The notes: generated from the sequence alone by a model not told the origin. Counted from the first letter of the stretch, positions 5,462-26,362 are shown. The stretch is DNA of 28,684 nt from an uncultured Clostridium sp. (GCA_947568605.1 CANOPV010000001.1:1-28684), one strand, 5' to 3'. Made by a program: numbers and translations.

Positions 5462-5495
5462 AGGGGCTGTATTTTTTTTGAAAGCGCGTTATTAT
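5462..5495 (+). promoter_or_regulatory. Element-specific bipartite promoter motif, copy 1 (aggggctg-N14-gcgcgttattat)
   Basis: Same architecture and spacing as the copies at 25739 and 26329. Confidence 0.65.
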
Positions 5496-5522
5496 TCATT
5501 TAAAGAAAGGACGTGCTTATGT

Positions 5523-6107
5523 ATGTTAAAGAAAATATTTAAAATTAGTGGTATTATTTTATTAGTCGGTTTTATTAGTGTGTTTGTGAAAGGATATATT
5601 TATCAAGAAGCAAAAACTAATCAAAAAGACAATCTCATAGTTGATTCATCATAAAATGAAAAACAAGAGTTAATAGATGAAGACATAATTACTTCTCTAT
5701 TAGATAATAAGGAAGATCAAGAAGTATTAGAAACAAAACAAGAAGAAATTGCTCCAGAAGTAAAACAAGAAGTTGTTATTCAAAAAGAAAATACTTCTCA
5801 ACCAAAACAGGAAGTACAAACTTCTACTACACCAGAAGTTGTTGTTCCACAACCTAAACAACCTACAGAATGGGAAAAATTAGGTATTAGTGAATATGAT
5901 TATTACAATAGTCCAGAGATTTCTTGGAAAACAGTAGATTTTGATGTAAATAAATTAGGAAGTATGGAAGAAACAAAAAATGCTTGTTATAATGCAGGTG
6001 CAAATTATACAGGGTTAGAAAATTATCGTTTTAGATGTGATGAAACTTATAGTTACTCTGGTAAATTTTTAGGTTATCACATTCAATATATAGAATTAGA
6101 ATCATAA
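5523..6107 (+). pseudogene. Membrane-anchored/secreted protein (194 codons) broken by one in-frame TAA at 5652-5654
   Basis: MLKKIFKISGIILLVGFISVFVKG...IVDSS*NEKQELIDED...PKQPTEWEKLGISEYDYYNSP...YHIQYIELES*. SD gaaagga upstream. The frame is otherwise uninterrupted. Missing from the ORF track. Confidence 0.8.
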
Positions 6108-6128
6108 GGCCGTAAAGGTCTTTTTTTT
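6106..6128 (+). terminator. Intrinsic terminator upstream of the adhesin gene
   Basis: aaggcc-gtaaa-ggtctt followed by T8. Confidence 0.7.
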
Positions 6129-6152
6129 ATGAATTTATAAGGGGGAATTTTA

Positions 6153-8891
6153 ATGAATATAAAAAGAAAAATTTTACTTGCTATACCCATTTTACTGGGT
6201 ATAGTTTTAGGCTTTGCCACTTCTACTTTAGAAGTCAAAGCTGAAACTTATGCAGGACAAGCTATTTGGCCTAGCGAATATATTTCAAATGTATATTTGA
6301 AAAAAGCAAGATCCGACGGTTATGTTGCTTATAAACAAGCAAGATTTATGCGTCGTAGTGAAGATAATGCTTTTGTTTATTGTCTTCAACCATTTGTTGA
6401 TATTGATAATAACCTTATTTATAATGTTGCACGAAGTGATTATGCAACTTATCTTAATATGACACCAGAACAATGGGATAGAATTAGTTTACTTGCCTAT
6501 TATGGATATGGATATGGAAATCATAATACCCCAAAATGGTATGCTGTTACACAAGTATTGATTTGGCGTACTGCAGAGCCAACAAGTACTATTTACTTTA
6601 CTGACGGTTTAAATGGTACTAGAAATGACAATTTATTTATTGATGAAATAAATGAGATTGAAAGTTTAGTTGCTCAACACAATAAAAGGCCTAACTTTAA
6701 TTCAGAATCTATTACACTACCTTTAGGAAAAACTATTACATTAAATGATGTAAATAATGTTTTAAATGGGTATAGAGTGAAAGAACAAAGTAATGCAAGT
6801 GCAAGTATCAATGGTAATTCACTTTCAATTACTGCTACTGGTGTCGGAAATGCTACTATTAAGTTATCAAAGGAAGATTCTTTATATCCTACACCACCAG
6901 TAGTATATTTTAAGGAAGGCACTCAAAATGTATTTAGAGTTGGATCATTTGATCCTTTATATTCTACTATCAATTTAAAAGTAGTTGGTGGTCGTGTTGA
7001 AATCACAAAGAGAGATAAAGACACAGGCGAAGTAATTCCACAGGGATTAGCTTCACTTTCTAATGCCACTTATGGAATATACAATGCCGAAACAAACGAT
7101 CTTGTTGGAACAATAACAACGGATAATAATGCTTTTGCAAGAAGTGATTATCTACCTGATTTAGGTAGATTTTATTTGCAAGAAATTACACCTAGTCAAG
7201 GATATAAATTAGATACTCAAAAGTATTACTTCACAGTAGATGAAAATAATTTACTTGTTAAAGTAGATGTTTACGAAGAAGTAATCACTCGTGAATATGA
7301 AATTACAAAAGTTTATGCTTCTGATAAAACACAAATTATGACACCAGAGATTGGGGTTGAATTTGCTATCTATGATCATAATAATAATTTAGTATCAATA
7401 GAAACTACAGATAAAGACGGTAAGATTTACTTTTCACTTCCTTATGGCGATTACACATTAAGACAACTTACTTCTACAAGTGGGTTTGAAAAAATAGAAG
7501 ATTATCATTTTGAAGTTAGAGATTTAGGTCCTACTATCAATAAGGTTTTCTCAAATGCTGAAATCACATCAAGATTAAAAGTAGTTAAAGTAGATCAAGA
7601 CGGTAATAATATTACACAAGCTGGTATTAAGTTTAAAATTAAAGATTTAGCAACTGGTAAGTATGTATGTCAAACAGTATCTTATCCTACCACTACTACT
7701 TATTGTGAGTTTGAAACTGATAAGGACGGTGTTTTAATTACACCATATCCATTAAATAGTGGTAATTATCAATTAGAAGAAGTAGATCAAGTTGTTTATG
7801 GGTATGTTTGGAATTCTACACCACTTCCATTTACTATAGATGAGAAAGCTGATATTAAGAAAACTGATGAATTTGACGCCATACTTGAAATTCATTTTGA
7901 AAATCAAGAAGTTAAAGGTGTTATTGAATTAAATAAAGTTGGCGAACAAATAGTAATTGAAAATGGTACATATACTTATGAAGAAATAGAACTTCCTAAT
8001 GTAGTATTTGGTTTATATGATGAATCAGGTAATCTTATTAAAACACTTGAAACAAATGATAAAGGTTTTGTAAGATTTGAAGATTTAAAACTTGGAAAGT
8101 ATATTATAAAAGAAATTTCTACTACTGGAAATCATATTTTAGATAATGAAGAATATGAGTTTGTTCTTGAATATAAGGATCAATATACACCTATAATCAA
8201 AAAAACATTTACTCTTAAAAACTATCTAGGAAAAGGAAGTTTAGATTTTCGTAAAACTGATCTAACAAGTGGTAAGGAACTTCCTAATGTAAAAATAGAA
8301 ATATATACTTCTGACGATGAACTTATTTATAGTGGTGTTACTGATGAAAACGGTAAAATCAAAATAGAAAATCTATTTATTGGAAAATTCTATATAATTG
8401 AAACTGAAACAGTAACAGGTTATAAATTATCTGATGAGAAAGTATATTTTGAGATTTTAGAAAATGGCGAAGTTGTAAAAGCTAGTATGACTAATGAAAA
8501 ATTTAAAGGAGATTTGGAATTTACAAAGGTAGATTTATCTACTGGCGATCCACTTCCTAACACATTGATTGAAGTATATAATGCTGAAACAGAAGAACTT
8601 ATCTTTTCTGGTCGTACTGATGAAAACGGTAAAATCATCATTAAAGATTTAGAATATGGTAAGTACTACATTCTTGAAAAAGAAGCACCAGAAAATTATA
8701 TTTTGAATGAAGAAAAAATGTATTTTGAAATTTTAGAGAATGGCGAAGTTGTAAAAGCAACAATGACTAATGAAAAAGTAGAAATGCCTAAAACATTCAA
8801 TACTGATATAACTAGTGTTATTACTATTATGGGTACTGCCCTAGTAGGGTTAGGTCTTCTATTATATGCTAAAAAGAAAAATAATAAATAA
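6153..8891 (+). CDS. Thioester-domain (TED) adhesin with multiple SpaA/Cna-B isopeptide domains and a C-terminal sorting signal (MPKTF-TM-KKK)
   Basis: Signal peptide. VYCLQP (Cys77) and TQVLIW (Gln134) TED motifs. Repeated TD..G...L..G.Y...E...P.GY Cna-B units. Hydrophobic anchor followed by a Lys tail. Confidence 0.88.
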   Translation: MNIKRKILLAIPILLGIVLGFATSTLEVKAETYAGQAIWPSEYISNVYLKKARSDGYVAYKQARFMRRSEDNAFVYCLQPFVDIDNNLIYNVARSDYATYLNMTPEQWDRISLLAYYGYGYGNHNTPKWYAVTQVLIWRTAEPTSTIYFTDGLNGTRNDNLFIDEINEIESLVAQHNKRPNFNSESITLPLGKTITLNDVNNVLNGYRVKEQSNASASINGNSLSITATGVGNATIKLSKEDSLYPTPPVVYFKEGTQNVFRVGSFDPLYSTINLKVVGGRVEITKRDKDTGEVIPQGLASLSNATYGIYNAETNDLVGTITTDNNAFARSDYLPDLGRFYLQEITPSQGYKLDTQKYYFTVDENNLLVKVDVYEEVITREYEITKVYASDKTQIMTPEIGVEFAIYDHNNNLVSIETTDKDGKIYFSLPYGDYTLRQLTSTSGFEKIEDYHFEVRDLGPTINKVFSNAEITSRLKVVKVDQDGNNITQAGIKFKIKDLATGKYVCQTVSYPTTTTYCEFETDKDGVLITPYPLNSGNYQLEEVDQVVYGYVWNSTPLPFTIDEKADIKKTDEFDAILEIHFENQEVKGVIELNKVGEQIVIENGTYTYEEIELPNVVFGLYDESGNLIKTLETNDKGFVRFEDLKLGKYIIKEISTTGNHILDNEEYEFVLEYKDQYTPIIKKTFTLKNYLGKGSLDFRKTDLTSGKELPNVKIEIYTSDDELIYSGVTDENGKIKIENLFIGKFYIIETETVTGYKLSDEKVYFEILENGEVVKASMTNEKFKGDLEFTKVDLSTGDPLPNTLIEVYNAETEELIFSGRTDENGKIIIKDLEYGKYYILEKEAPENYILNEEKMYFEILENGEVVKATMTNEKVEMPKTFNTDITSVITIMGTALVGLGLLLYAKKKNNK
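8230..8780 (+). repeat. Two tandem ~92-aa Cna-B/SpaA repeats with high DNA similarity
   Basis: actgatgaaaacggtaaaatca and tattttga.attttaga.aatggcgaagttgtaaaagc..atgactaatgaaaaa each occur twice. Confidence 0.8.
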
Positions 8892-9480
8892 AATACTTGT
8901 AGTGATTGGATTGTTACTAATTATAGTGGCGATCCTTTCTACTTATTGTTTTCTACATAATAAAGAAATAGATAAACAAGAAACAGAAACTATTATCAAT
9001 GATTTGTTTCCAGATGTTCCTACACCAGAAGTAGAAATACCAGAAGAAACACCTACTATAATTGAAACACCAAAACAGGAATTTGTATTAACTGATAACT
9101 ATTTAGGATATATAGAACTTTCTGGGTATGGAATTAAAAGACTTATCACAACAGGAACATCAAAAAAAGTTTTAGATAAAAATTTAGTTGGTACTTTATC
9201 TGTATCTGCTAATTTAGATGATGAATTTGGTAATGTGATTCTAGCAGGCCATAGCACCAGTAATGTGTTTCAAAAATTACATTATATGAGAGTTGGCGAT
9301 CAAGTAAAGATTGTTACTCATCAAAATACTTACTATTTTACTATTATCAGTAAACATACAATCAATGATAATGATATGTCTTATTTCAATAGTATAAATG
9401 ACAAAAAACAATTAACACTTGTTACTTGTAAAAATAATAGTAAGCAACGACTTATTGTTATATGTGAATTAAGGGGGTAA
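8866..9480 (+). CDS. Sortase (class C/D-like)
   Basis: N-terminal TM. GNVILAGHS (His), LTLVTC (Cys), QRLIV (Arg). Overlaps the adhesin 3' end. Confidence 0.9.
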   Translation: MLKRKIINKILVVIGLLLIIVAILSTYCFLHNKEIDKQETETIINDLFPDVPTPEVEIPEETPTIIETPKQEFVLTDNYLGYIELSGYGIKRLITTGTSKKVLDKNLVGTLSVSANLDDEFGNVILAGHSTSNVFQKLHYMRVGDQVKIVTHQNTYYFTIISKHTINDNDMSYFNSINDKKQLTLVTCKNNSKQRLIVICELRG

Positions 9481-9485
9481 TTAAA

Positions 9486-9716
9486 ATTAAAAGATATAAT
9501 ACAAAGTTTATGTTTTACATAACAAAAAATCTCAAAAAAGATATAAGAAAAAGATCCAAAGAATTAGATATTTCTATGTCTGATTATATAAGGACACTAA
9601 TAAAAAAAGATTTAAAGGAATGTGAAATTGTTTCTAATACTTTGGAAAAAGATAAAAATATTTATGATGTGGATAATTTCAATAAGAAGTTATCAGGTTA
9701 CTATAGGGGGTTATAA
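9486..9716 (+). CDS. Ribbon-helix-helix (CopG-like) DNA-binding protein (ATT 9486 or ATG 9510 start)
   Basis: (KRYNTK)FMFYITKNLKKDIRKRSKELDISMSDYIRTLIKKDL shows a beta-strand plus helix-helix pattern. Confidence 0.65.
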   Translation: MKRYNTKFMFYITKNLKKDIRKRSKELDISMSDYIRTLIKKDLKECEIVSNTLEKDKNIYDVDNFNKKLSGYYRGL

Positions 9717-10379
9717 ATGAAGATATATGAAATAGATTTTAATCTTTATAGTCGTTTATTTAATGAGCGAGAAAACTCTGACTATGGTAAAATGCCTAGT
9801 TATTTAACTGGAAAATTCCTTGTAAAAAATAAAAATGGTAAAGGATATTTTGGTGTTGATAATTCCACTAATGAATGGTGGGAAGAAGAATTTAAAAACA
9901 AATTACAATGTCTTATATGGTTAGTAGATGATGAACTTACAACTGAACAAGTTATTGAGAAATATAATACTAACAAAGATGATTGTAAAGATTATAAAAA
10001 GTATCTTGTTAGTCAAGATGTTTTTTGTGAAAAAAATAATATTTATCATCGTGATTATTTTAAGTTTGATCCAAAGAAAGAATATGATTTTAAAATCAAT
10101 TTAGGTAGTGGTACAAGAGAGTTTTCTTCCACTATTGAAAATGCTTTAGGGTTAGCTTCAAATTATGAAACAGATTTATTATATAAGGATATTCTTATAT
10201 TTTCATCTTTGGGTTTTGAATGGGAAGAAAATTGTCGGCTTATAGAACAATATCTTGGAAAAAATTATGATAGACGTAACTTTAAAGAAAAAGATTTGTA
10301 CGATGACTTCGGTCTTCCATATAGGAAACCAAGCGACGGTTGTTTTAATTTCAAAGATGAAAAAACTATAAAAATGTAA
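9717..10379 (+). CDS. Hypothetical protein (220 aa)
   Basis: Long ORF with the GGGGG SD. No confident family. Confidence 0.75.
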   Translation: MKIYEIDFNLYSRLFNERENSDYGKMPSYLTGKFLVKNKNGKGYFGVDNSTNEWWEEEFKNKLQCLIWLVDDELTTEQVIEKYNTNKDDCKDYKKYLVSQDVFCEKNNIYHRDYFKFDPKKEYDFKINLGSGTREFSSTIENALGLASNYETDLLYKDILIFSSLGFEWEENCRLIEQYLGKNYDRRNFKEKDLYDDFGLPYRKPSDGCFNFKDEKTIKM

Positions 10380-10392
10380 AGGGGGTTAAAAA

Positions 10393-11295
10393 TTGATAGA
10401 ATTAGATAAAGATTTAGTAAGACGTTCTGATAATCAGAGTATGTATAATCGTGGCACTCATATTCAAGATGACGCTAATCACGAATATCAAAGATTTGTT
10501 GAATTATACGGAATCAGAGAACTAAACGAAAAACAATTAGAAATTGTAAATAAAAGAAAAGAACAATTTAAAGAGCTAATTACTGACAGTTATAATGAAT
10601 TATTAAGAGTTAATGCAAATTTTGTGCCTGTCAATGTGGCTGGTCCAGCAAAATATCCTGTTGAAAAAATGTGTAAGGTCCAAGCTAAAATAGATAACAC
10701 ACTTTATACTATTGAAGACAAGATAAAGAGATTCTATAAAAATACTGATGATATGTTAAAAAATGCTTATACAAAAGAAGAAATTATAAGTAAGTATAGA
10801 AATGGATATAATGAGCCAATTAGTAGTGACGATCCACTTGTAAAAGAAAAATTACAAGCAAAATTAGAATTTTTAGAAGAAAATCATCAATCATATTTGA
10901 ATTATAATAAGAAAGCTAGAAAAAATAATGAAGATCCACTTCCACCTTATGTATTAGCGAACTCTAATCAAAATATAAAATCAGTAAAGAATCGTTTAAA
11001 ACAGTTAGAAAAAATGGATAAACTACAAATGAATGACTACTATTTTAATAATGGCGAAGTCCGTTTTGATAAAGAAGATAATCGTGTCAAAATATTCTTT
11101 GATGAAAAACCAAGTCAAGAAGTAATAGAAGAATTAAAAAGTCACGCTTACAGGTGGTCGCCTAAAGGTTTATGTTGGCAAAGGAAACTTACACCAGACG
11201 CTATATATATGACAAAAAGAATGTTTGCTGATATAGGTAGTTTAGAAATTAAATTAGTACACGACTATACCAAAGAAAATAAAATGACAATGTAG
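10393..11295 (+). CDS. Conserved mobile-element protein with a C-terminal domain seen in DUF3560-like/polyvalent proteins
   Basis: VPVNVAGPAKYP, PISSDDPL..EKLQAKL and DNRVKIFFDEKPS.EV.EELKSHAYRWSP...WQRKLT are recognisable ICE/plasmid motifs. The family name is tentative. Confidence 0.55.
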   Translation: MIELDKDLVRRSDNQSMYNRGTHIQDDANHEYQRFVELYGIRELNEKQLEIVNKRKEQFKELITDSYNELLRVNANFVPVNVAGPAKYPVEKMCKVQAKIDNTLYTIEDKIKRFYKNTDDMLKNAYTKEEIISKYRNGYNEPISSDDPLVKEKLQAKLEFLEENHQSYLNYNKKARKNNEDPLPPYVLANSNQNIKSVKNRLKQLEKMDKLQMNDYYFNNGEVRFDKEDNRVKIFFDEKPSQEVIEELKSHAYRWSPKGLCWQRKLTPDAIYMTKRMFADIGSLEIKLVHDYTKENKMTM

Positions 11296-11306
11296 GTGGT
11301 GTTTGT

Positions 11307-12716
11307 ATGATGTTACAGTTATTAACAGTACAACACGAATCTGCAGGTTGGATAACAGACGCGATCCGTTGGGTATTTTGGATGTTGGCAAAAGGTGTAC
11401 TCATCTTACTAGACGGTATGTTTTTAATCATCAATGATATATGGAAATTCAAGTTTTTTGATAATCCGTATGTGAATAAGATATATTCGGCTGCAATCAT
11501 TGTGGCCTGTACTTGGCTAGTACTGAAAGTTATTATTGAAATTATAATGAGATATTTTGTCAATCAAGATGATAATTCTTCCCCCACTAGGGTATTTAGG
11601 GGTATCATTTTTTGTATAGTAATGATGTTTTTAATTCCACCCATATTTAATTGGGGATATGATGTATCATCTAAACTTACACAATATACAATATCAGCTT
11701 CATCTACTGCAGAAACAAGTCCTACTTCTTTTGAAGCTAGTATGTCTTCTATGATACTTACGGCTTTTGCAGATGATAGCAAAATGGACGAATCTGATAA
11801 AAAATACTTTATAGAGAACTGGTGGACGGTTGATTATAATGCTGTTATGAATGACGGCCTTTTTGATTCAGGGGAATATAAATATAGTTTTCATACTTTT
11901 TCCGTTTTCATAGTCGGTTTAGTCGTTGTTGTTCTTTTATTCTTTATAGGAATTCAAGTTGCTAAACGAGTGATAGAACTTGCTTTATATAAGGCAATCG
12001 CACCGTTTGTGTGTACGTCTTTAATATCAAATAGATCACATACATTTGAAGTATGGGCAAAAGGTGTTTTAGGTACATTCCTAGTTACTGCTGTCCAGTA
12101 CCTATGTATTGGAATATTATTTAATGTTTTTGGTACAGTTGTAAAAGGTACTTCTTATGCTATGTCTGTTATACTTATCATCATAGGTGCTTTACTCTTT
12201 ATCATATCATCGCCACAATTAGTGAGTGCTTTGTTAAATGCAAATACTGGAACAATGGCGAATATGAGTGAATTACATAGTATGGCTGCACTAGGTACAA
12301 GTATGATAGCTATGTCAAGATATGGGAAAACAGAAGATAACTCTACTAATTCAAATAATAGTAATGATAATTCTTCTTCTACACCAGACAGTAATTCAAG
12401 TGGTAATGATCCTAATATGACATCAAATTCTTCATCTTCTAATTTGGAATCTGCAAGTCAATCTTCTAATCAAGATAATTCTTCAAATTCTAATTCAGAA
12501 AGTAGTAGTCCTACTATGGATAGTGGAAGTAATGATATACCTACTTATAATGATGATATGTCTAACACCACTTCACTTGCTGATAGAATTGATACATACA
12601 AAGATATGATTGATAATAACAATTATTCATTTAATCAAGAATCTAGTACTTTATATAAAACTACTACAGATTGGGGGAATGTAAATGTATCTAATACCGA
12701 AGAACATAAGGGTTAA
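11307..12716 (+). CDS. VirB6/TrbL-like polytopic membrane protein with Ser/Asn-rich C-terminal tail
   Basis: Multiple TM helices, a KRVIELALYKAIAPFVCTS...FEVW motif, and a low-complexity tail. Confidence 0.85.
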   Translation: MMLQLLTVQHESAGWITDAIRWVFWMLAKGVLILLDGMFLIINDIWKFKFFDNPYVNKIYSAAIIVACTWLVLKVIIEIIMRYFVNQDDNSSPTRVFRGIIFCIVMMFLIPPIFNWGYDVSSKLTQYTISASSTAETSPTSFEASMSSMILTAFADDSKMDESDKKYFIENWWTVDYNAVMNDGLFDSGEYKYSFHTFSVFIVGLVVVVLLFFIGIQVAKRVIELALYKAIAPFVCTSLISNRSHTFEVWAKGVLGTFLVTAVQYLCIGILFNVFGTVVKGTSYAMSVILIIIGALLFIISSPQLVSALLNANTGTMANMSELHSMAALGTSMIAMSRYGKTEDNSTNSNNSNDNSSSTPDSNSSGNDPNMTSNSSSSNLESASQSSNQDNSSNSNSESSSPTMDSGSNDIPTYNDDMSNTTSLADRIDTYKDMIDNNNYSFNQESSTLYKTTTDWGNVNVSNTEEHKG

Positions 12717-12960
12717 AAGAGAAATATTTAAAGGATATGGAATTAAAGAGATATTACTACTTGGTCTATCTGTTCTTGTAGGTTTTATACTTGCAAAAAT
12801 TTTTGGAACAGGGCTAATTAAAATATTCTTCTTTTGCTTCTTTCCTATTCTTACATTTTTAATTACTTTGCCTATGCCAAATGGATCAGGCAATATTTTA
12901 AGTATCATAATAAAAATGATAAAGTTTAGGTCAAGTCAAAAGAAATATAAAAAATTTTAA
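12685..12960 (+). CDS. VirB3/PrgI-like small membrane protein
   Basis: MYLIPKNIRVKREIFKGYGIKEILLL followed by two TM helices. Located between virB6 and virB4. Confidence 0.8.
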   Translation: MYLIPKNIRVKREIFKGYGIKEILLLGLSVLVGFILAKIFGTGLIKIFFFCFFPILTFLITLPMPNGSGNILSIIIKMIKFRSSQKKYKKF

Positions 12961-12969
12961 TTACAAATA

Positions 12970-12999
12970 TTGACAAAGTACGACAATTTCATATATACT
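12970..12999 (+). promoter_or_regulatory. Sigma-A promoter internal to the transfer region
   Basis: TTGACA (12970-12975), 18 bp, TATACT (12994-12999). Confidence 0.65.
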
Positions 13000-13005
13000 T
13001 ATATT

Positions 13006-14025: not shown

Positions 14026-14028
14026 TTT

Positions 14029-19979: not shown

Positions 19980-19992
19980 GGGGGTTATAACT

Positions 19993-21837
19993 ATAAAGAA
20001 ATATTTTAATTACATACTAGTAGTTATTATTTCTTTATTGTTTTTTACTTTCATCATTACTAATTTTGTTGTATGTATGAAAAGTAATTTTGAATTAAAA
20101 TTTATATATAATCTTTTAGATATAATTAGTATTGTTTCAAAAGATAGAAATATTTTAGTAGGCATTTCTTTAATAGAATGTCTTTTTCTTTTGGCCTTAT
20201 TATATTATAAATATAGTTTTAAAATTAAAAACTCTAACAGTACAAATGGTGTACCTAAAAGAATCAATAGTAATGAATTTGGTAGTAGTACCTTTGCTAC
20301 TATTAAGGAAGTAAGAAAAAACTTTACTACTTGGCGATTTAATAAGAATAATAAGTCTGGTGGTATGGTTGTTGCAATAGATGATAATAATTACTATGTA
20401 GATACTAGCTCTAATCATACATTGATTATTGGTAATACTGGATCTGGTAAAACAGTTTCAGTAATTGATCCACTCATATTTAATTTAGCTGACGCTGGCG
20501 AATCAATGATTATCAATGATGTCAAAGGCGAACTTTACAAAACTACTTATGATTATTTAAAAAAGAAAGATTATGATATTAAGATTATCAATTTAAGAAA
20601 TACAAGTAATAGTGATTTTTGGAATCCACTCACGATCGCTTATGAGTATTTTAAAGAGAATAATTTTGAAAAAGAGATTGAAACAATCAATGATTTATCA
20701 GGTGCAATATGTGAAGATGTTACTAGTCGTGATAAGTACTGGCAAGAGTCTTCATCTTCTGTTTTAAGTGCATTATGTCTTGCTCTTTTAGAAGACGCAA
20801 AAAGTGAAAGTCAAATACACTTTCATTCTATCTATAACTTACTTGTGGAACACGGTGCTAAAAAGTATGGCGATCAGAATTCACTTGATAAGTATTTTAG
20901 TGATCGTCCATTTGGAAGTACTGCAAAAAATCTTTACTCTACAGGAAACTTTGCTCGTGGGGAAACAAGGGCTACTATTTTTTCCATTCTAGCGTCAAAA
21001 TTAAGAGTTTTTGGAGATACTGGTGTTAGTTATATGACTAGTAAAACTTCATTCAATATAAGGGACATAGGTAAGAAAAAAACTGCTATCTTCCTTATCA
21101 TTCCAGATGAAAAGATTTCTAGGCATTTCATAGGTAGCTTATTTATCAATCAAGTCTATCAGGTTTTAGTAGAAGAAGCTCAAAAAGAAAATTCTGGTAC
21201 ACTTCCTATTAGGGTAAATTTCATACTAGATGAATTTTCAAATATGGTAAAGATTGCTGAATTTTCAAAAAAACTTACAGTAGCAAGATCCAGAAATGTT
21301 AGATTTTATTTAGTAATTCAAGATTTTAATCAGTTGCAAGAAAATTATAAAGAAATGGCTGGTACTATTAAGTCTAACACTAGTAATTGGGTTTATCTCT
21401 CTACAAACGATTATAATACCGCTCACGAGTTATCAAATAGAATTGGAAAATATACGATTGCCACTACTAGAACATCATCTTCTAATAGATATGGAAAAGT
21501 TGATTTCAATCTGTCATCTGACACATCACTTACTGGTCGTGATTTAATTACTGCAGATGAGCTTATTAACTTTAAAGTTGGCGAAGCTATCATATTAAGA
21601 ACTAGAATGTCGCCTATAAAGACAAATTTAAAGCAAATAAGTGATTATCCATTTAGATATAAAGTTACTGATACAATAGAAGTCAAACAAGATGAATTCC
21701 ATAAACTAGAACTTTTTGATCTTGATACATTTAGAATTGAACAAGAATTATTTTCCAATAAGGAACAAGTACAAGATGTACCTATCAAAAAAGCAAGTCC
21801 AACCAGAAAGAGAAAACCTAAAAATGACTCTGAATAA
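19993..21837 (+). CDS. virD4: VirD4/TraG coupling protein (ORF track starts at TTG 20038; inferred start ATA 19993)
   Basis: N-terminal TMs, IGNTGSGKT Walker A, INDVKGEL, DPFW-like DFWNP, FILDEF, RSRN..F.LVIQD..QL. Confidence 0.93.
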   Translation: MKKYFNYILVVIISLLFFTFIITNFVVCMKSNFELKFIYNLLDIISIVSKDRNILVGISLIECLFLLALLYYKYSFKIKNSNSTNGVPKRINSNEFGSSTFATIKEVRKNFTTWRFNKNNKSGGMVVAIDDNNYYVDTSSNHTLIIGNTGSGKTVSVIDPLIFNLADAGESMIINDVKGELYKTTYDYLKKKDYDIKIINLRNTSNSDFWNPLTIAYEYFKENNFEKEIETINDLSGAICEDVTSRDKYWQESSSSVLSALCLALLEDAKSESQIHFHSIYNLLVEHGAKKYGDQNSLDKYFSDRPFGSTAKNLYSTGNFARGETRATIFSILASKLRVFGDTGVSYMTSKTSFNIRDIGKKKTAIFLIIPDEKISRHFIGSLFINQVYQVLVEEAQKENSGTLPIRVNFILDEFSNMVKIAEFSKKLTVARSRNVRFYLVIQDFNQLQENYKEMAGTIKSNTSNWVYLSTNDYNTAHELSNRIGKYTIATTRTSSSNRYGKVDFNLSSDTSLTGRDLITADELINFKVGEAIILRTRMSPIKTNLKQISDYPFRYKVTDTIEVKQDEFHKLELFDLDTFRIEQELFSNKEQVQDVPIKKASPTRKRKPKNDSE

Positions 21838-22960
21838 TCAAACTATGACTTTATTTAATTATGAATATCCATTTATTAAACTAGATAAGAATAATGTTAA
21901 GGTTGGTACTTTCTTTTCTGGTATTGGAAGTCCAGAAATGGCTTTTCATAGATTAAAAGAAAATGGTATTATAAATAATTATGAATCTGTATTTTTTTGT
22001 GAAGTGGATAAACACGCGATTAAAAGTTATTGTGCGATCCATAATAAAACACCAGATGACAATCTTGGGGATATTACTAAAATCAATGGTGCTGATATTC
22101 CATATTGTGATATTTGGATCGGTGGCTTTCCCTGTCAAGATATAAGTATGGCTGGTGTTCGTCGTGGCTTTGATTTTGGAAGTCGTACTCGTTCTTCTCT
22201 TGGGTGGAAAATGATACAATTTTTAAGAGAAGTAAAAGATCCACCAAAAGTAGTTATTTTTGAAAATGTGGCTGCAATTACTCATTCAAAATTTAGAATA
22301 ACATTGAACTTATTTAAAAATGATTTAGAAGAATTAGGATATTCACTTTATGATGATGTTTTATGTGCTTTAGATTATGGTACACCACAAAATAGAGAAA
22401 GATATTTTTTAGTTGCAATCAAGGGAAAATACTTATATCAATTTCCACAAAAAATGAAATTGAAGTTAAGACTTAAAGATTTACTAGAAAAAGATATTGA
22501 TCCTAATCTTATTTTATCTGAAAAAGTTCCATTTGATTTACAAAGTTTTGTTGCTAATAAAGATTATACAAAAGATTGTAAGTTAGTTTGTAAGAATCTG
22601 AAAGATAAAAGAAGAAAATATATAATAGATTTATATAGATTTATTGACGGTAAAAATAAGTGTGGACGTGATACATCTAGTAAATATAATCAAACTGCAA
22701 GGTTATGGTCTATAAATGGATATTGTCCTACACTAACGGCGAATTCTACAGAAGATACAAGTAAAATGATTATCTATCGTGATAATTGTTTTTTTGTGAA
22801 AAAAATTAGTCCTTTAGAAAGCTGGCGTTTTATGGGGTTTAGTGATGAAGATTTTTATAAAGCAAAAGACATCGGTACTTCTAATCGTCAATTATTCAAA
22901 CAAGCTGGAAATAGTATTGCTACAAATGTGATTTATCATATTTTAAAAAAATTATTTTAA
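21824..22960 (+). CDS. dcm: Orphan C5-cytosine DNA methyltransferase (likely start ATG 21824)
   Basis: Motif I FFSGIGS, IV GFPCQD, VI FENV, VIII QNRER, TRD TL motif (CPTLTA), X QAGNSI. Confidence 0.93.
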   Translation: MTLNNQTMTLFNYEYPFIKLDKNNVKVGTFFSGIGSPEMAFHRLKENGIINNYESVFFCEVDKHAIKSYCAIHNKTPDDNLGDITKINGADIPYCDIWIGGFPCQDISMAGVRRGFDFGSRTRSSLGWKMIQFLREVKDPPKVVIFENVAAITHSKFRITLNLFKNDLEELGYSLYDDVLCALDYGTPQNRERYFLVAIKGKYLYQFPQKMKLKLRLKDLLEKDIDPNLILSEKVPFDLQSFVANKDYTKDCKLVCKNLKDKRRKYIIDLYRFIDGKNKCGRDTSSKYNQTARLWSINGYCPTLTANSTEDTSKMIIYRDNCFFVKKISPLESWRFMGFSDEDFYKAKDIGTSNRQLFKQAGNSIATNVIYHILKKLF

Positions 22961-22986
22961 TATCATAGATATATATTAGAAAAAAA

Positions 22987-22995
22987 TGTTATAAT
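22987..22995 (+). promoter_or_regulatory. Extended -10 promoter (TGTTATAAT) for the lipoprotein pair
   Basis: Exact TGnTATAAT ~40 nt upstream of 23038. Confidence 0.55.
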
Positions 22996-23037
22996 TGATT
23001 TACAAATAGATATACTATTTGAAAGTGAGATGATATA

Positions 23038-23592
23038 GTGAAAAAAGTATTGTTATTATGTTTAATAAGTATTTGTATTTTATTAACTGGTTGTTCGGAA
23101 GAAAAGGATTCATTTGAGCATTATGATTTAAAAGATAAAGATTTGAATATTTATACATATTTTAGTGATAACGGCAAAGAAGTTTATGCTTTAGCAGATA
23201 TAACGCCTAGTTCTTATGAATCGTTTTTAACGGGGTTCTTCTATAAAATTGATGACAACGATTATATTTTATTAGAAACATTAGAATCATCCCAACAAGA
23301 TGCTTATAAAAAAGACTATATGTATCAATTTTATGATAATAAACTTTATGGTGTTGGAAATGGAAATTCCCCTATGATATTTGAAATAGAGTTAAAAAGA
23401 AAAGAAAGTAAAATTAAAGAGTTAGAATTTAAAATAGATGAAAAAACTAATCCTTTTTTAATAAGTAGTATTAGAAATATTGATAAAGACTTAATTACTA
23501 TTTCTGGGGATATTTTTATAAGTGAACATAGTGAGTATAGATACTTTGAATGTTCTTTAAAAAACTATGAATGCTCTATAAAGGATAAATAA
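23038..23592 (+). CDS. Lipoprotein of unknown function
   Basis: MKK plus hydrophobic stretch and lipobox LLTG-C. Confidence 0.8.
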   Translation: MKKVLLLCLISICILLTGCSEEKDSFEHYDLKDKDLNIYTYFSDNGKEVYALADITPSSYESFLTGFFYKIDDNDYILLETLESSQQDAYKKDYMYQFYDNKLYGVGNGNSPMIFEIELKRKESKIKELEFKIDEKTNPFLISSIRNIDKDLITISGDIFISEHSEYRYFECSLKNYECSIKDK

Positions 23593-23599
23593 TAAATTT

Positions 23600-24004
23600 A
23601 TGAAAAAAATTACATATTTTGTTTTGATAACTATATCATTTTTAATATTGATATGTATTATTTATGTTATATTAGGTTTTACTGGTAATTTATATACAAA
23701 AAAAGAATCATATCTTTCATCAAATAAAGAATATAAAATTGTTATAAAAGGTAATGGTGCAAAATGGCCGTTCGGTAGTGAAGATATAAAGGTGTATGCT
23801 TATAAAAATAGTTTTACTGGCACTTTTAGTAAAGCAATTTATAAAACAAAAATATTTAATGATGGCAAAATTTTAAATGATAGTAATTTTAATATTGAAT
23901 GGAATGATAATATTGCATACCTTTCTTTAAATGGCGAAGAACAAAAAGATGAAATTTTAAAAATAGTTTTTGAAGATAAGGTTACTATTGAAAAAATGGA
24001 ATAA
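23600..24004 (+). CDS. Single-TM membrane protein of unknown function
   Basis: MKK plus one TM helix, then a soluble domain with WPFG, NDG and GEEQ motifs. Confidence 0.75.
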   Translation: MKKITYFVLITISFLILICIIYVILGFTGNLYTKKESYLSSNKEYKIVIKGNGAKWPFGSEDIKVYAYKNSFTGTFSKAIYKTKIFNDGKILNDSNFNIEWNDNIAYLSLNGEEQKDEILKIVFEDKVTIEKME

Positions 24005-24130
24005 TAAATGGAATTAGATTATCAAACAAAAAGATAATCTTTTCTTTTGGCCTATTTTATTCTAGTAAAATCGTGATATAATGTAATTGATATGTAGGAT
24101 CCTAGAATAATATATTCGGTCATCTGTTGA

Positions 24131-24159
24131 TTGACTTTTGTAATGTATTACTGTATGAT
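24131..24159 (+). promoter_or_regulatory. Sigma-A promoter for 24204
   Basis: TTGACT, 17 bp, TATGAT. A second TGaTATAAT lies at 24074-24082. Confidence 0.55.
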
Positions 24160-24203
24160 AATACGTACTCTATCAAAACTTTAAGTATTAAGGAGTAGTA
24201 TGT

Positions 24204-24725
24204 ATGAAAAACGAACAGTATTTAGAACTTCGGAATCAGGTTTCAGAAATGAATAAGATTAACGATGAAATAAGTCTTATAAACTGGAATCGTGAAGACG
24301 GTCCCAAATTTTCATCTGTAGAAGAAATGAAAGAATTTGAACATAGATTAAAAAATAATGAATTTGATTATTTTTTTGAAGATAAAGATAATGCTGATAT
24401 ACTAGATACAAAAGATGTTATTGTTGAAAGTTTTTCTCATACACTAGAAGACATATCATTCTATATTTATACATACCAAAACAAAAGTAACTATAACTAT
24501 GTTACTTATCTATCATTAACTAATACAAAAGATAATGATATAATTGACAAATTATGTGGTAATACTACTTCTGATAAAGAATCCGCACATAATTATTTTG
24601 AAACATTAAAACAAGCAATAACAAATAATAATATAAATGATATTTTGGAAAACTTAACTTTAGGAGCACAAAAAACTATAGTATCATTAAAAAATAAATT
24701 ATCTAAACTAACTAGTGAAAGCTAG
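24204..24725 (+). CDS. Hypothetical protein (173 aa)
   Basis: Canonical SD aaggag. No motif recognised. Confidence 0.7.
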   Translation: MKNEQYLELRNQVSEMNKINDEISLINWNREDGPKFSSVEEMKEFEHRLKNNEFDYFFEDKDNADILDTKDVIVESFSHTLEDISFYIYTYQNKSNYNYVTYLSLTNTKDNDIIDKLCGNTTSDKESAHNYFETLKQAITNNNINDILENLTLGAQKTIVSLKNKLSKLTSES

Positions 24726-24753
24726 TTTTTTTGTTTATAAAGGGGGTTAAAAT

Positions 24754-25737
24754 ATAGATATAGGAAAATTAGTGAATGATCTAAAAGATTATTCTAAAAA
24801 TAATGAATTTGATAAGATTAAAGATATAACATTAAAATTTGAAAAAGATTTTCTTGATAATTGTAAAAGTGAATATGATTTTAAAAGTTTGATTGATGAT
24901 TTATCTTTATATAGTAATTATACAGTTTTAAATACATTATTGATAAAATATCAATATCCAGATTTTCTATCACTTGGAACAAAACAATCATATTTAGATC
25001 AAGGTGTTCAATTACTAGAAAATGCTACACCTATTGAAATACTAACACCAATCAGTGATGAATATGTATCTATAAAAGAAAATGATAAAGTGATAATTAA
25101 AAATATGAAAGATCTGACAAAACAAGAATTAAAAAGATATTTTGATAAAGAGAATAAAGATGTTGTGTTTCATCATAAAGATTTTAAAGGTCTTAATTCT
25201 ACTATACTCTTTGATGTAAAAGATACAACAATGAAGAAAATTGATTATGATACTGGGACGCTTCCGGCTCTTTTTTATTCTTCTTATGATGAAATTTACA
25301 ATAGTTTTATAAAGGCACTTTATGCTGACGGTTTTAAAGTAAAATATGTTAATATGAATAATAAATACTCTTTTGATAAGGATAGTAAAACAATTAGTTT
25401 AAAACAAGGTTTGAACAAAAGAACACACTTAATGATAGTGCTTGATATTTATACAAATAATATAGCTTCTAATGAAATGGAAAAAGATATGTTAGATATG
25501 GTTATTTCAAGAAGAATTGGAATAGATAAAGAAGATGTTTCTTTTGATAAGTTTCAATCTTGGTATAAGAATCAAGATATAAAAACAGTAGATAATCTAC
25601 TAAAAGTGATTGTTAATAAAGGAAGAAAATTTGCAAATAATTTTAATAAGTTTTATGAGATAGAATTTCAAAAGAATGAAAGCTTATATCCAGATGACGA
25701 GAAAGGTTTATATGATGACTTTTCTCTTTTTTCATAA
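24754..25737 (+). CDS. ArdC/LtrC-like ssDNA-binding protein with a degenerate metallopeptidase region (start ATA 24754 or GTG 24772)
   Basis: LSLYSNYTVLNTLLIKYQYPD...G..LLENATPIEILTP resembles the ArdC N-domain (YSFNN.LLI..Q.P...G..V..G...I.IL.P). No HExxH is present downstream. Confidence 0.55.
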   Translation: MDIGKLVNDLKDYSKNNEFDKIKDITLKFEKDFLDNCKSEYDFKSLIDDLSLYSNYTVLNTLLIKYQYPDFLSLGTKQSYLDQGVQLLENATPIEILTPISDEYVSIKENDKVIIKNMKDLTKQELKRYFDKENKDVVFHHKDFKGLNSTILFDVKDTTMKKIDYDTGTLPALFYSSYDEIYNSFIKALYADGFKVKYVNMNNKYSFDKDSKTISLKQGLNKRTHLMIVLDIYTNNIASNEMEKDMLDMVISRRIGIDKEDVSFDKFQSWYKNQDIKTVDNLLKVIVNKGRKFANNFNKFYEIEFQKNESLYPDDEKGLYDDFSLFS

Positions 25738-25738
25738 A

Positions 25739-25772
25739 GGGCGCTGACAAGAATTTTCTGGCGCGTTATAAT
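25739..25772 (+). promoter_or_regulatory. Element-specific bipartite promoter motif, copy 2 (gggcgctg-N14-gcgcgttataat)
   Basis: Perfect TATAAT. CTGACA lies at the -35 position (17 bp). Confidence 0.75.
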
Positions 25773-25793
25773 TCGTTTGTAAGGCGGTGTAAA

Positions 25794-26081
25794 ATGAAAA
25801 AGAATTGTTATGATGAATTATATAACATTCATAAAGAAAGGAAAATCAGGGCTTTTTATGTTGATCTATTATGTGAGATACTTCTACTTCGTTATGAGTT
25901 TTCTTATAAGGAAACAACAAAAAAAGATGTATTGAGTGAACTACCAAGTTTGAGAGAATTTAAAAGTACAGAAGTAGAAAAAATTTATAATGATAGTCTT
26001 AAGATATTAGAATTAAGATATAGAATTAAAGTTTTAGATGATAGTCCATTAAAATTTGTAAAAGAAAATGAAATATCATAA
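25794..26081 (+). CDS. Hypothetical protein (95 aa)
   Basis: SD aaggcgg. Directly downstream of motif copy 2. Confidence 0.7.
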   Translation: MKKNCYDELYNIHKERKIRAFYVDLLCEILLLRYEFSYKETTKKDVLSELPSLREFKSTEVEKIYNDSLKILELRYRIKVLDDSPLKFVKENEIS

Positions 26082-26126
26082 ATAATAAAATATAGGCAAA
26101 TACTTGCTAATTAGTGAATATACTAT

Positions 26127-26160
26127 AAAGAATAGACATAAAACTCTATTCTTTTCTTTT
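26127..26160 (+). terminator. Intrinsic terminator
   Basis: aaagaataga-cataaaac-tctattcttt plus a T-rich tail. Confidence 0.65.
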
Positions 26161-26193
26161 TTCTTTAAATAAGATTTAAAGGGGGTTGAAAAA

Positions 26194-26346
26194 ATGAAGA
26201 ATAAAAAGGTAACTTATAAGATTATAAATGAATTTAATGTTGATAAAGATAAAACAAAGGACGATTTAAAACTTTCTTTTAATAAGAAACTTTTAAAGGT
26301 AATACTTTCTATTGAAAAAAATGTATATGGGCGCTGTAATTCCTAA
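26194..26346 (+). CDS. Small basic protein (50 aa) upstream of the recombinase; candidate recombination directionality factor
   Basis: GGGGG SD. MKNKKVTYKIINEFNVDKDKTKDDLKLSFNKKLLKVILSIEKNVYGRCNS. The function is inferred from position only. Confidence 0.55.
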   Translation: MKNKKVTYKIINEFNVDKDKTKDDLKLSFNKKLLKVILSIEKNVYGRCNS

Positions 26347-26362
26347 ACGAGCGCGTTATAAT
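26329..26362 (+). promoter_or_regulatory. Element-specific bipartite promoter motif, copy 3, upstream of the recombinase
   Basis: gggcgctg-taattcctaaacga-gcgcgttataat, with boxes identical to copy 2. Confidence 0.75.

What the first reader, a model, noticed from the sequence alone, without database searches (positions are those of the whole stretch)
5462..26362. Private GC-rich bipartite promoter motif (GGGCGCTG-N14-GCGCGTTATAAT) in three places, a candidate regulon for the ArpU-like protein
Seen: copies at 5462-5495 (aggggctg...gcgcgttattat), 25739-25772 and 26329-26362 have an identical 14-bp spacer in otherwise very AT-rich DNA. Each ends in a -10 box and has a weakened -35 (CTGTAT, CTGACA, CTGTAA). 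They precede the adhesin/sortase block, the 95-aa gene and the integrase. Established: RinA/ArpU-type proteins are activators in phages, and ICEs often use a dedicated activator (for example SetCD in SXT). Inference: this is an activator- or alternative-specificity-dependent promoter class that synchronises excision with mating-adhesin expression.
Basis: partly seen in the sequence, partly recalled or inferred. Interest (0 to 1): 0.78.

Follow-up and report, generated by a model that had tools for sequence, protein, structure and literature searches.

The report
Conserved private promoter before integrase genes
Three copies of a GC-rich two-box signal wrapped around an ordinary -10 box mark the starts of the mating-adhesin operon, a small gene and the integrase gene of this conjugative element, and the same signal recurs before serine-integrase genes in well over a hundred mobile elements of gut Firmicutes, often just downstream of a small sigma-region-4-like gene, so it is probably a dedicated "switch-on" promoter class for excision and transfer.

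Summary
GGSGCTG-N14-GCGCGTTATWAT occurs three times in the window, all on the + strand. Shuffles give none, and the host genome has no other copy.

It is not private to this element. An exact-pattern scan found 56 sites in low-GC gut Bacilli genomes. Every one points at the gene downstream: 41 lie before large serine recombinase genes only 25-97% identical to this one, and the others are orthologues of sites 1 and 2. Retrieval by protein homology alone shows the boxes kept while spacers and flanks diverge. G-36 C T G-33 and C-15 G-14 never vary.

A relaxed form lies before recombinase genes in other Bacilli and in 40-50% GC Clostridia. There a Sigma70_r4 ORF sits 585-939 nt upstream in all 15 loci with enough DNA, against 0 of about 40 motif-less recombinase loci.

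The window's "ArpU-like" protein scores below the family threshold, but its model has a sigma-region-4-like C-terminal domain. It stays 78-94% identical where the recombinase and XRE modules were swapped.

Best reading: a dedicated promoter class read with an element-encoded sigma-4-like factor, as in Tn916 Sig7-8. This is inferred, not shown. Several motif-bearing islands have no such gene, and no transcription start data exist. A repressor operator remains a serious rival.

The parts
5462..5495 (+). Motif copy 1 (AGGGGCTG-N14-GCGCGTTATTAT). It lies 14 nt after the SSB stop and 27 nt before the first gene of the adhesin/sortase/T4SS block.
   Evidence: Orthologous copies occur in 11 genome loci and in ICE variants whose ArpU-like protein is 78-79% identical.
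25739..25772 (+). Motif copy 2 (GGGCGCTG-N14-GCGCGTTATAAT; CTGACA-17-TATAAT). It starts 1 nt after the stop of the 321-aa ORF and lies 21 nt before the 95-aa gene.
   Evidence: 11/12 promoter score. Orthologues are in L010, L032, L004 and L073.
26329..26362 (+). Motif copy 3. Box 1 overlaps the last codons of the 50-aa ORF. It lies 53 nt before the recombinase ATG.
   Evidence: The equivalent site is kept before recombinases 25-97% identical.
3556..4011 (+). 'ArpU-like' 151-aa protein with a sigma-region-4-like C-terminal domain. It is the candidate reader of the motif.
   Evidence: TIGR01637 E=1e-5, 25.7 bits, below the 43.1 cut-off, aligned over its full length. No Pfam hit. AF2 model pLDDT 74; fold hits are almost all sigma-28, ECF sigma and SigA region 4, with E values of 0.05-1. 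It is 78-94% identical in related ICEs.
3087..3114 (+). Near-consensus sigma-A promoter (TTGACT-16-TGaTATAAT) ahead of the operon that holds the ArpU-like gene. It is not a motif copy.
   Evidence: The 66-aa ORF between it and the ArpU-like gene is not conserved as protein.
2170..2439 (+). XRE/HTH_3 regulator (89 aa). It is a candidate immunity repressor of the early promoter rather than of the motif.
   Evidence: Pfam HTH_3 E=4e-12. tblastn finds no homologue upstream of the ArpU-like gene in D-type ICEs or in L204, although those keep the motif.
5523..6107 (+). First gene after copy 1 (membrane-anchored; 195-225 aa in relatives). In this window it is interrupted by one in-frame TAA.
6153..9480 (+). 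SpaA/thioester-domain adhesin (6153-8891) and sortase (8866-9480), followed by the T4SS genes. This is the transcription unit that copy 1 would head.
   Evidence: Pfam results.
25699..25726 (+). Terminator-like hairpin plus T-run just before copy 2.
   Evidence: The flank is conserved in B-type orthologues.
25794..26081 (+). 95-aa protein downstream of copy 2. The stored model resembles winged-helix domains (MAGE, ScpB).
   Evidence: TM 0.6-0.74; a lead only. No Pfam or NCBIfam hit. An 84-aa homologue (36% identical) follows the B-type site in L004.
26194..26346 (+). 50-aa ORF of a small-protein family (..LFNKKL..I..EK..G[RG]CN) that always abuts the recombinase gene. It may be a recombination-directionality partner.
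   Evidence: The family also occurs before motif-less recombinases.
26416..28509 (+). Large serine recombinase (697 aa; Resolvase, Recombinase, Zn_ribbon_recom and DUF4368 domains).

Best explanation
The three sites are promoters of one dedicated class. Each has a sigma-A-type -10 hexamer (TATAAT or TATTAT) with a weak -35 (CTGnnn) 17 nt upstream. This core sits inside two GC-rich specificity boxes: box 1 is GGSGCTG at about -39 to -33, and box 2 is GCGCG at about -18 to -14. They start three transcription units: the adhesin/sortase/T4SS operon, the 95-aa gene (perhaps with the 50-aa gene), and the serine integrase. The boxes are most likely read by RNA polymerase together with an element-encoded protein that has a sigma-region-4-like DNA-binding domain. 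In this element that is the ArpU-like protein at 3556-4011, made from the sigma-A promoter at 3087 under the XRE immunity module. One early regulator would then switch on excision and mating functions together. This is the same logic as Tn916 Sig7-8 at Psig7 and as phage ArpU/RinA at late promoters. Shown here: the motif, its non-random occurrence, its orientation and position relative to genes, its conservation, and its synteny with sigma-4-like genes.
For: (1) The motif is non-random and not used by the host: 3 copies against 0 in shuffles, no other copy in the genome. (2) Promoter geometry holds. All 56 low-GC sites from the exact-pattern scan point at the downstream gene, whose called start (the first ATG/GTG/TTG) lies from just inside the -10 box to about 100 nt after it. 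In the three F-type loci a small ORF begins there and the recombinase starts about 310 nt downstream. Site 2 follows a terminator-like hairpin. (3) Selection acts on the boxes rather than the flanks. The A, B and C sites of one element share only the boxes. Homology-based retrieval shows the motif before D- and E-type recombinases (35-45% identical) with different spacers, and G-36 C T G-33 and C-15 G-14 are invariant in 40 distinct sites. (4) The motif is specific. It is absent before other serine recombinase types in the same host family and in metagenomes. (5) The ArpU-like protein has a sigma-4-like fold. Region 4 reads -35 elements, and box 1 overlaps the -35. (6) The ArpU-like protein stays 78-94% identical, and all three sites are kept, in ICEs whose recombinase (45% identical) and XRE module have been replaced. 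(7) Independent lineages show the same pairing. The relaxed motif lies before recombinase genes in other Bacilli families and in 40-50% GC Clostridia-type contigs. A Sigma70_r4 ORF lies on the same strand 585-939 nt upstream in 15 of 15 loci with enough upstream DNA, against 0 of about 40 motif-less recombinase loci. (8) There is precedent. Tn916 Orf7 (region-4-like) and Orf8 form a split sigma that drives the element's main promoter and is needed for excision (bioRxiv 10.64898/2026.10.01.756105). A motif-like sequence lies 45 nt before tndX, downstream of orf7/orf8, in a Tn5397-like record.
Against: No transcription start or expression data were obtained: public RNA runs were available only as low-depth contigs. 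E-type (10 genomes), F-type, X-type and G204 elements keep the motif before their recombinase genes but have no detectable ArpU- or sigma-4-like gene nearby, or in the genome with these queries. The ArpU-like and Sigma70_r4 proteins are barely alignable (E=1e-3 in a small database), yet the motif is almost the same. That favours a more conserved reader such as host RNA polymerase or another factor. Known ArpU/RinA/LtrC sites are three 7-nt direct repeats just after the activator gene (PMC3753634); here a terminator follows the gene and no such repeats are seen. The -10 is a perfect sigma-A hexamer and site 2 has a 5/6 -35, so some sites might fire without any activator. Box 2 lies where a classical activator would clash with RNA polymerase. 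No region-2-like partner was found: the conserved 87-aa neighbour is a plain helical bundle. There is no motif upstream of the ArpU-like gene itself, so no autoregulatory loop as at Psig7.
Confidence: 0.42

Rival explanations
1. The sites are sigma-A promoters whose GC-rich boxes form the operator of an element-encoded repressor. Half-sites GSGCT and AGCGC lie 19 bp apart and span -38 to -14. The integrase, the small genes and the transfer genes would be silent in the integrated state. They would fire together on de-repression in donors and by zygotic induction in new recipients, as with ICEBs1 ImmR at Pxis.
For: The boxes cover the core promoter from -39 to -14, the usual place for a repressor. 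The -10 is perfect, and the -35 is 5/6 in B-, Y- and Z-type sites. A 5-bp inverted repeat GCGCT-N14-AGCGC is present at site 3 and in many relatives. An integrase needed in both donor and recipient fits de-repression logic. Small ORFs of unknown function always abut the integrase-proximal sites, and the 95-aa protein looks like a winged helix.
Against: No candidate repressor co-varies with the motif. The XRE gene is replaced in ICE variants that keep the motif. The p50-like ORF family also occurs before motif-less recombinases. The dyad is imperfect in about half of the sites (S=G), with no compensating change in box 2. This reading does not explain the tight synteny with sigma-4-like genes.
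Confidence: 0.28
2. The sites are ordinary constitutive sigma-A promoters. The motif is inherited with the recombinase module and was copied twice within this ICE. The GC-rich boxes would serve an RNA-polymerase-intrinsic or DNA-physical role, such as spacer rigidity, supercoiling sensitivity or insulation in AT-rich DNA, with no dedicated factor.
For: The motif follows homologous recombinase genes across Bacilli and Clostridia, whatever other genes are present, including islands with no detectable regulator. Host RNA polymerase is the only reader known to be shared by all these hosts. In Tn916, Pint is read by host sigma-A and is active in transconjugants.
Against: Sigma-A has no known need for G-36/C-35 or C-15/G-14, yet these are the most invariant positions, more so than parts of the -10. 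No host gene uses the motif. Some lineages lost the boxes but kept the TATAAT (L126/L189), so the boxes can be separated from basal promoter function. The A and B sites precede unrelated genes and share only the boxes.
Confidence: 0.17
3. The paired GCGC tetramers make the promoters sensitive to cytosine-5 methylation, by the element's own C5 methylase (21716-22960) or by a host GCGC system. The promoters would then sense whether the DNA has just arrived.
For: Five of the six GCGC sites in the window lie in the boxes. The host genome is strongly depleted in GCGC: 88 seen against 318 expected. The element encodes a C5 methylase whose best solved relative is M.HhaI, which recognises GCGC.
Against: The similarity to M.HhaI covers only the catalytic domain (query residues 90-264), not the target-recognition domain, so the specificity is unknown. 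Natural variants keep the CG at -15/-14 but lose GCGC (GTGCG, ACGCG, GAGCG), and box 1 is often GGGGCTG with no GCGC.
Confidence: 0.04
4. The sites are DNA sites for the recombinase (accessory, att-like or res-like), or fold-back single-strand promoters of the Frpo type.
For: There are three direct copies, one next to the recombinase gene. An earlier scan note (e1-3246966) describes a hairpin promoter mimic before other serine-integrase genes.
Against: The element ends carry an unrelated inverted repeat (CCGATGACAT.A.CCACA). The recombinases behind the motif are only 25-45% identical and should differ in site specificity. As single-stranded DNA the regions fold no better than shuffles (z -0.4 to -1.5).
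Confidence: 0.03

Closest known systems
Tn916 split sigma factor Sig7-8 (Orf7/Orf8) acting at Psig7 (Gomberg & Grossman, bioRxiv 10.64898/2026.10.01.756105; Celli & Trieu-Cuot 1998 as cited there)
   Same: An ICE-encoded small protein with a sigma-region-4-like domain directs transcription from a promoter that the host does not otherwise use, and so switches on excision and conjugation genes. A sigma-4-like gene lies a short way upstream of the recombinase module. A motif-like sequence lies before tndX in a Tn5397-type record that carries orf7/orf8.
   Different: No region-2-like (Sig8/RsoA-like) partner was found here. There are three dispersed promoters rather than one main promoter that needs circularisation. 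No copy lies upstream of the factor's own gene, so no positive feedback is evident. The -10 equals the sigma-A consensus. The Psig7 sequence could not be compared because it is not given in the papers read.
Phage late activators of the Ltr superfamily: ArpU, RinA, LtrA (Sigma70_r4), LtrB (DUF1492), LtrC (PMC3152322, PMC3753634)
   Same: The protein is small with a C-terminal sigma-4-like DNA-binding domain. It is encoded in an early operon under a cI/XRE-type module and turns on a later block. The window protein aligns end to end with the ArpU model.
   Different: The score is below the family cut-off. The element is conjugative, not a phage, and the exact motif is absent from IMG/VR. Known sites are three 7-nt direct repeats immediately after the activator gene and upstream of the terS promoter. 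Here two GC-rich boxes are embedded in the core promoter, 1.45 kb and about 22 kb from the gene.
SetCD of SXT/R391 ICEs and the SetCD-activated promoters of mobilisable genomic islands
   Same: One element-encoded activator has a recognisable box at several promoters for excision and transfer. The same box also lies before int/xis genes of islands that lack the activator.
   Different: SetCD is a FlhDC-type activator of Gammaproteobacteria, unrelated in sequence, and it binds upstream of the -35. Here the dependence of the factor-less islands on an ICE is only a hypothesis.
ICEBs1 ImmR repression of Pxis (as summarised in the Tn916 preprint)
   Same: A single regulated promoter class governs excision and transfer genes. 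A regulator site overlaps the core promoter.
   Different: ImmR is an XRE repressor. In this ICE family the XRE gene is not conserved with the motif.
Phage T4 middle promoters (MotA box plus sigma-70 -10; sigma appropriation by AsiA/MotA) (from my own knowledge)
   Same: A consensus housekeeping -10 is combined with a private element in place of a good -35.
   Different: The proteins are unrelated. The T4 box is centred at -30 and is AT-rich. No AsiA-like remodeller was identified here.

Membership tests
ArpU family phage transcriptional regulator (TIGR01637) | Scores at or above the curated model cut-off (43.1 bits) | tested here: not met
   25.7 bits, E=1e-5. No Pfam family at E<=1.
ArpU family phage transcriptional regulator (TIGR01637) | Full-length collinear match and a C-terminal sigma-region-4-like DNA-binding domain | tested here: met
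   Residues 15-147 align to model positions 6-134 of 136. The AF2 model's C-terminal helices match region 4 of sigma-28, ECF sigmas and SigA (rmsd 1-3 A over 57-75 columns), but Foldseek E values are only 0.05-1.
ArpU family phage transcriptional regulator (TIGR01637) | Encoded in a prophage just upstream of terS, with three 7-nt direct repeats right after the gene as its binding site (PMC3753634) | tested here: not met
   The context is a conjugative element. A terminator hairpin follows the gene and no triple repeat is seen. The motif is two boxes 20 bp apart inside the core promoter.
Split (two-subunit) sigma factor of the Sig7-8 / SigO-RsoA type | A subunit with sigma region 4 | tested here: met
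   Fold search of the ArpU-like model. Motif-bearing relatives carry Pfam Sigma70_r4 or Sigma70_r4_2 ORFs.
Split (two-subunit) sigma factor of the Sig7-8 / SigO-RsoA type | A second small subunit with sigma region 2 (Sig8/RsoA-like) encoded beside it | tested here: inconclusive
   The upstream 66-aa ORF is not conserved as protein. The conserved 87-aa neighbour folds as a helical bundle with no sigma-2 match. The Tn5397 Orf8 hits from the phmmer run were cut off in the printout and were not examined. Other small ORFs were not modelled.
Split (two-subunit) sigma factor of the Sig7-8 / SigO-RsoA type | Association with core RNA polymerase and factor-dependent initiation at the target promoter | not testable with these tools
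   Needs pull-down, ChIP or in vitro transcription.
Sigma-A (housekeeping) promoter | -10 hexamer TATAAT with a -35-like hexamer at 16-18 nt | tested here: met
   TATAAT twice and TATTAT once. CTGACA, CTGTAA and CTGTAT lie at 17 nt. Only site 2 passes the 9/12 consensus scan.
Sigma-A (housekeeping) promoter | A mapped transcription start about 7 nt after the -10 | tested here: inconclusive
   RNA-labelled public runs hold the element only as low-depth contigs. No read starts could be seen.
Large-serine-recombinase attachment or accessory site | Sequence related to the element's own att half-sites | tested here: not met
   The ends carry CCGATGACAT(A/T)A(A/T)CCACA inverted repeats, unrelated to the boxes.

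The most novel reading that the evidence does not exclude
The motif is a shared 'address' across mobile elements. Conjugative elements that encode the sigma-4-like factor use it for their own excision and transfer genes. Non-conjugative islands, such as the E-type defence islands with restriction-modification and Abi genes and the F, X and Y types, carry it before their integrase genes without encoding the factor. An incoming or resident ICE would then trigger their excision in trans. This would be a Firmicutes counterpart of SetCD-activated mobilisable islands, spanning Bacilli and Clostridia.
Probability: 0.12. Interest if true: 0.8.

Novelty: new variant of a known kind. Interest (0 to 1): 0.55.

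Why it matters
Almost nothing is known about how conjugative elements of uncultured, small-genome gut Bacilli (RF39-like) and many gut Clostridia decide to excise and transfer. This work gives a short, highly specific and easily searched DNA signal that marks the integrase promoter, and in this family also the transfer-operon promoter, of well over a hundred elements. It also names a small candidate reader gene. That makes the control circuit directly testable with reporters, gel shifts and in vitro transcription. It offers an annotation handle for element boundaries and regulons in metagenomes. It extends the recent Tn916 finding that ICEs may use their own sigma-like factors rather than repressors. 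If factor-less islands respond to the same signal, it would reveal cross-talk between mobile elements in the gut.

Tried and rejected
- **Transcription starts from public RNA runs.** The runs are stored only as contigs at depth 2-6. No starts were visible and DNA carry-over cannot be excluded.
- **Exact motif in IMG/VR.** There were no hits. Only the relaxed pattern gave hits, and these look like integrative or conjugative elements rather than phages.
- **Recombinase-site idea.** Rejected, because the element ends are unrelated to the boxes.
- **Single-strand fold-back promoter or RNA hairpin.** Folding is no better than shuffles, and the 5-bp dyad shows no compensatory change.
- **GCGC methylation switch.** The methylase resembles M.HhaI only in the catalytic core, and many natural sites lack GCGC.
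- **Host regulon.** No host copies were found in the own genome. In G171 the only extra weak copies lie before a tyrosine-recombinase-like ORF and at one uncharacterised place.
It is not conserved with the motif.
The family is also present where the motif is absent.
- **87-aa neighbour as a sigma-2-like partner.** Its model has no such fold.
- **Extra motif copies upstream of the sigma-4-like genes (autoregulation).** None were found.
- **Literature search for the motif strings.** Nothing relevant turned up.
- **ArpU-like homologue search.** It found only close relatives (at least 78% identical), all unnamed.

Full report
**The observation.**
The window is one whole 28.7-kb contig of a 1.25-Mb, 68%-complete MAG with about 27% GC. 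The pattern GGGCGCTG-N14-GCGCGTTATAAT, allowing up to 3 mismatches, matches at 5462, 25739 and 26329, all on the + strand. None of 100 dinucleotide-preserving shuffles gave a match. The gap is always 14 nt but its sequence differs between copies.

Counting TATAAT as -12 to -7:
- box 1 (GGSGCTG) lies at -39 to -33;
- a weak -35 (CTGTAT, CTGACA or CTGTAA) lies 17 nt from the -10;
- box 2 (GCGCG) lies at -18 to -14.

The consensus scan scores site 2 at 11/12. The own genome has no other copy, and no other pair of GCGC tetramers 15-25 bp apart. Five of the window's six GCGC tetramers lie in the boxes. GCGC is also strongly depleted in the host, with 88 seen against 318 expected.

**Context in the window.**
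The window is a Gram-positive conjugative element. Its genes run in this order:
- an XRE regulator (2170-2439);
- a near-consensus sigma-A promoter at 3087-3114;
- the 151-aa ArpU-like gene (3556-4011), followed by a terminator hairpin;
- a pilin-like gene and SSB;
- site 1, then a membrane-protein gene that here carries one in-frame stop;
- a SpaA/thioester adhesin, a sortase, TrbL, PrgI, VirB4, an M23 peptidase, NikA, a MobL relaxase, VirD4 and a C5 methylase;
- a terminator-like hairpin (25699-25726), then site 2 and a 95-aa gene;
- a 50-aa gene whose last codons are box 1 of site 3;
- a 697-aa large serine recombinase.

The -10 boxes end 27, 21 and 53 nt before the three start codons, each of which has a Shine-Dalgarno sequence.

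**Conservation elsewhere.**
An exact scan of 185,579 species genomes for GGSGCTG-N14-GCGCGTTATWAT gave 68 loci.
- Fourteen loci are scattered in higher-GC genomes with no common context, so they are background.
- Fifty-four loci, holding 56 sites, are in low-GC gut "Bacilli/Tenericutes/Mollicutes" MAGs.
- Every one of these sites points at the gene that follows.
- Forty-one lie before large serine recombinase genes. These are 70-97% identical to the window's (C type), 42-45% (D type, 685-701 aa), about 35-44% with an N-terminal extension (E type, 713-717 aa), or 25-32% (F and X types).
- Eleven are orthologues of site 1, three are orthologues of site 2, and one precedes unidentified small ORFs (L005).

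Because the pattern forces the boxes, I also fetched loci by recombinase homology alone from metagenomes.
- Among the full-length D-type homologues with upstream DNA, 11 of 14 carry the motif with 0-3 changes (GGTGCTG, AGGGCTG; GTGCG, ACGCG, ATGCG). The three exceptions are a deletion (L120) and two without it (L126, L130). L126, and its partial-match duplicate L189, lost both boxes but kept TATAAT in register.
- A truncated D-type match (L135) keeps only the core: TATGCTG in box 1 and ATACG in box 2, six changes.
- Three of the four E-type homologues carry it with 0-1 changes; the fourth (L181) has five.
- Across 40 distinct sites, G-36 C T G-33 and C-15 G-14 do not vary, while the spacer is free.
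- Other serine-recombinase types lack the motif, both in the same host family (30 loci) and in metagenomes (about 40 loci).

**A wider family.**
A 400-genome sample of the class found GGGGCTGACA-N11-GAGCGTTATAAT in two other families. It again lies directly before a 572-aa serine recombinase. A relaxed scan of IMG/VR found about 20 contigs of 40-50% GC with GGGGCTGnTTTTTCCCGCnnGGAGCGTTATAAT before 565-aa recombinases. A Tn5397-type record has ATAGCTGAAA...GGCGTGGTATAAT 45 nt before tndX. No paper in the searchable library contains these strings.

**Who reads it?**
*The ArpU-like protein.* It is a weak ArpU match (25.7 bits against a 43.1-bit cut-off, though aligned over its full length). Its AlphaFold model (pLDDT 74) has a C-terminal four-helix domain. 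The structural neighbours of that domain are almost all sigma region 4, from sigma-28, ECF sigmas and SigA, although the Foldseek E values are weak. Region 4 is the part of a sigma factor that reads -35 elements, and box 1 overlaps the -35.

*Co-variation within the ICE family.* The protein stays 78-94% identical and all three sites are retained. In the same elements the recombinase is swapped for one only 45% identical, and tblastn no longer finds the XRE module. It fits a cascade in which XRE controls the early promoter, the early operon makes the ArpU-like protein, and that protein acts at the motif promoters.

*Synteny in other lineages.* In the Z-type and Clostridia-type loci, which were found purely by DNA pattern, a Pfam Sigma70_r4 ORF lies on the same strand 585-939 nt upstream of the motif. 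This holds in all 15 loci with enough upstream sequence. None of about 40 motif-less recombinase loci has one, although three have an ArpU-like ORF.

*Precedent.* A 2026 preprint shows that Tn916 Orf7 (region-4-like) and Orf8 form a split sigma factor. It binds RNA polymerase, drives the main promoter and is needed for excision.

**Reasons for caution.**
- E-type islands (10 genomes; they carry restriction-modification, ClpP and Abi genes and no T4SS homologues), F-type and X-type elements and the truncated element in G204 keep the motif before their recombinase genes. Yet protein search, the TIGR01637 model, custom profiles and Pfam all find no ArpU- or sigma-4-like gene in them.
- The two kinds of sigma-4-like protein are barely alignable, yet the motif is nearly identical.
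- Known ArpU/RinA sites have a different architecture (PMC3753634).
- The -10 is a perfect sigma-A hexamer.
- Box 2 lies where a classical activator would collide with RNA polymerase.
- No sigma-2-like partner was found.
- Public RNA runs gave no transcription-start information.

A repressor operator therefore stays a serious rival. In that reading the half-sites GSGCT and AGCGC lie 19 bp apart. The candidate binders would be the small proteins encoded beside the sites, including the winged-helix-like 95-aa protein. A factor-independent promoter inherited with the recombinase module is a weaker rival, because the most invariant bases are ones that sigma-A does not need. Three further ideas were tested and found unsupported: recombinase binding sites, single-strand fold-back promoters and a GCGC-methylation switch.

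**Verdict.**
It is a conserved, host-unused promoter signal that marks serine-integrase genes in many Firmicutes mobile elements. In this ICE family it also marks the transfer/adhesin operon and a small-gene unit. I put about 0.85 on the sites being promoters with a dedicated trans-acting reader. The kind of system is known (Tn916 Sig7-8, phage Ltr activators, SetCD). The motif, its architecture and its distribution appear undescribed.

Noticed in passing
window 5523-6107: The first gene after site 1 encodes a membrane-anchored protein that is 195-225 aa in relatives. Here it has a single in-frame TAA near 5652, so it is either a nonsense allele or an assembly error.
   Followed up: partly
window 26194-26346; also L022, L008, L049, L130, L133, L137: A family of 35-60-aa ORFs (..LFNKKL..I...EK..) sits immediately upstream of large serine recombinase genes, both with and without the motif. 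It may be a recombination-directionality or cofactor protein. In the Clostridia-type loci a DUF6870 ORF holds the same position.
   Followed up: partly
whole genome G000; window: GCGC is strongly under-represented in the host genome: 88 seen against 318 expected from dinucleotides. This suggests pressure from GCGC-directed restriction. The element carries a C5 methylase of unknown specificity at 21716-22960.
   Followed up: partly
G171:C16, G201:C17, G202:C7, G203:C41 versus the window: The ICE family is modular. The ArpU-like/pilin/SSB/T4SS backbone is 71-94% identical, while the recombinase (45% identical) and the XRE regulator module are exchanged.
   Followed up: partly
G206:C1 about 70-86 kb (L112): This E-type island has a Bsp6I-like restriction enzyme plus a C5 methylase, ClpP, DUF3846 and large unknown proteins. 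It ends with the p50-like ORF, the motif and a 713-aa recombinase, next to host HtrA and an Abi_2 gene. It has no conjugation genes.
   Followed up: partly
L016, L042, L038, L069 (planctomycete contigs, 51-58% GC): Four contigs share GGGGCTGAC...GCGCGTTATAAT followed by conserved gcgcg-rich repeats about 60 nt before an ORF that starts VQN. They are probably an unrelated conserved promoter.
   Followed up: no
G171:C4:146509-146541 (L200): A 2-mismatch copy (GGCGCTGACAAATAAAAATAAGCGCGATACAAT) lies 23 nt before a 249-aa ORF. Fragments with tyrosine-recombinase motifs (HTLRHT) follow, so the signal may not be limited to serine recombinases.
   Followed up: no
window 61-80 and 28520-28540: The element ends carry the inverted repeat CCGATGACAT(A/T)A(A/T)CCACA inside collagen-like Gly-X-Y repeat coding sequence. 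The right arm contains a DnaA-box-like TTATCCACA.
   Followed up: no
window 3359-3559: The 66-aa ORF that overlaps the start of the ArpU-like gene is not conserved at protein level in a related ICE (L204). The stretch is more likely a leader than a gene.
   Followed up: partly
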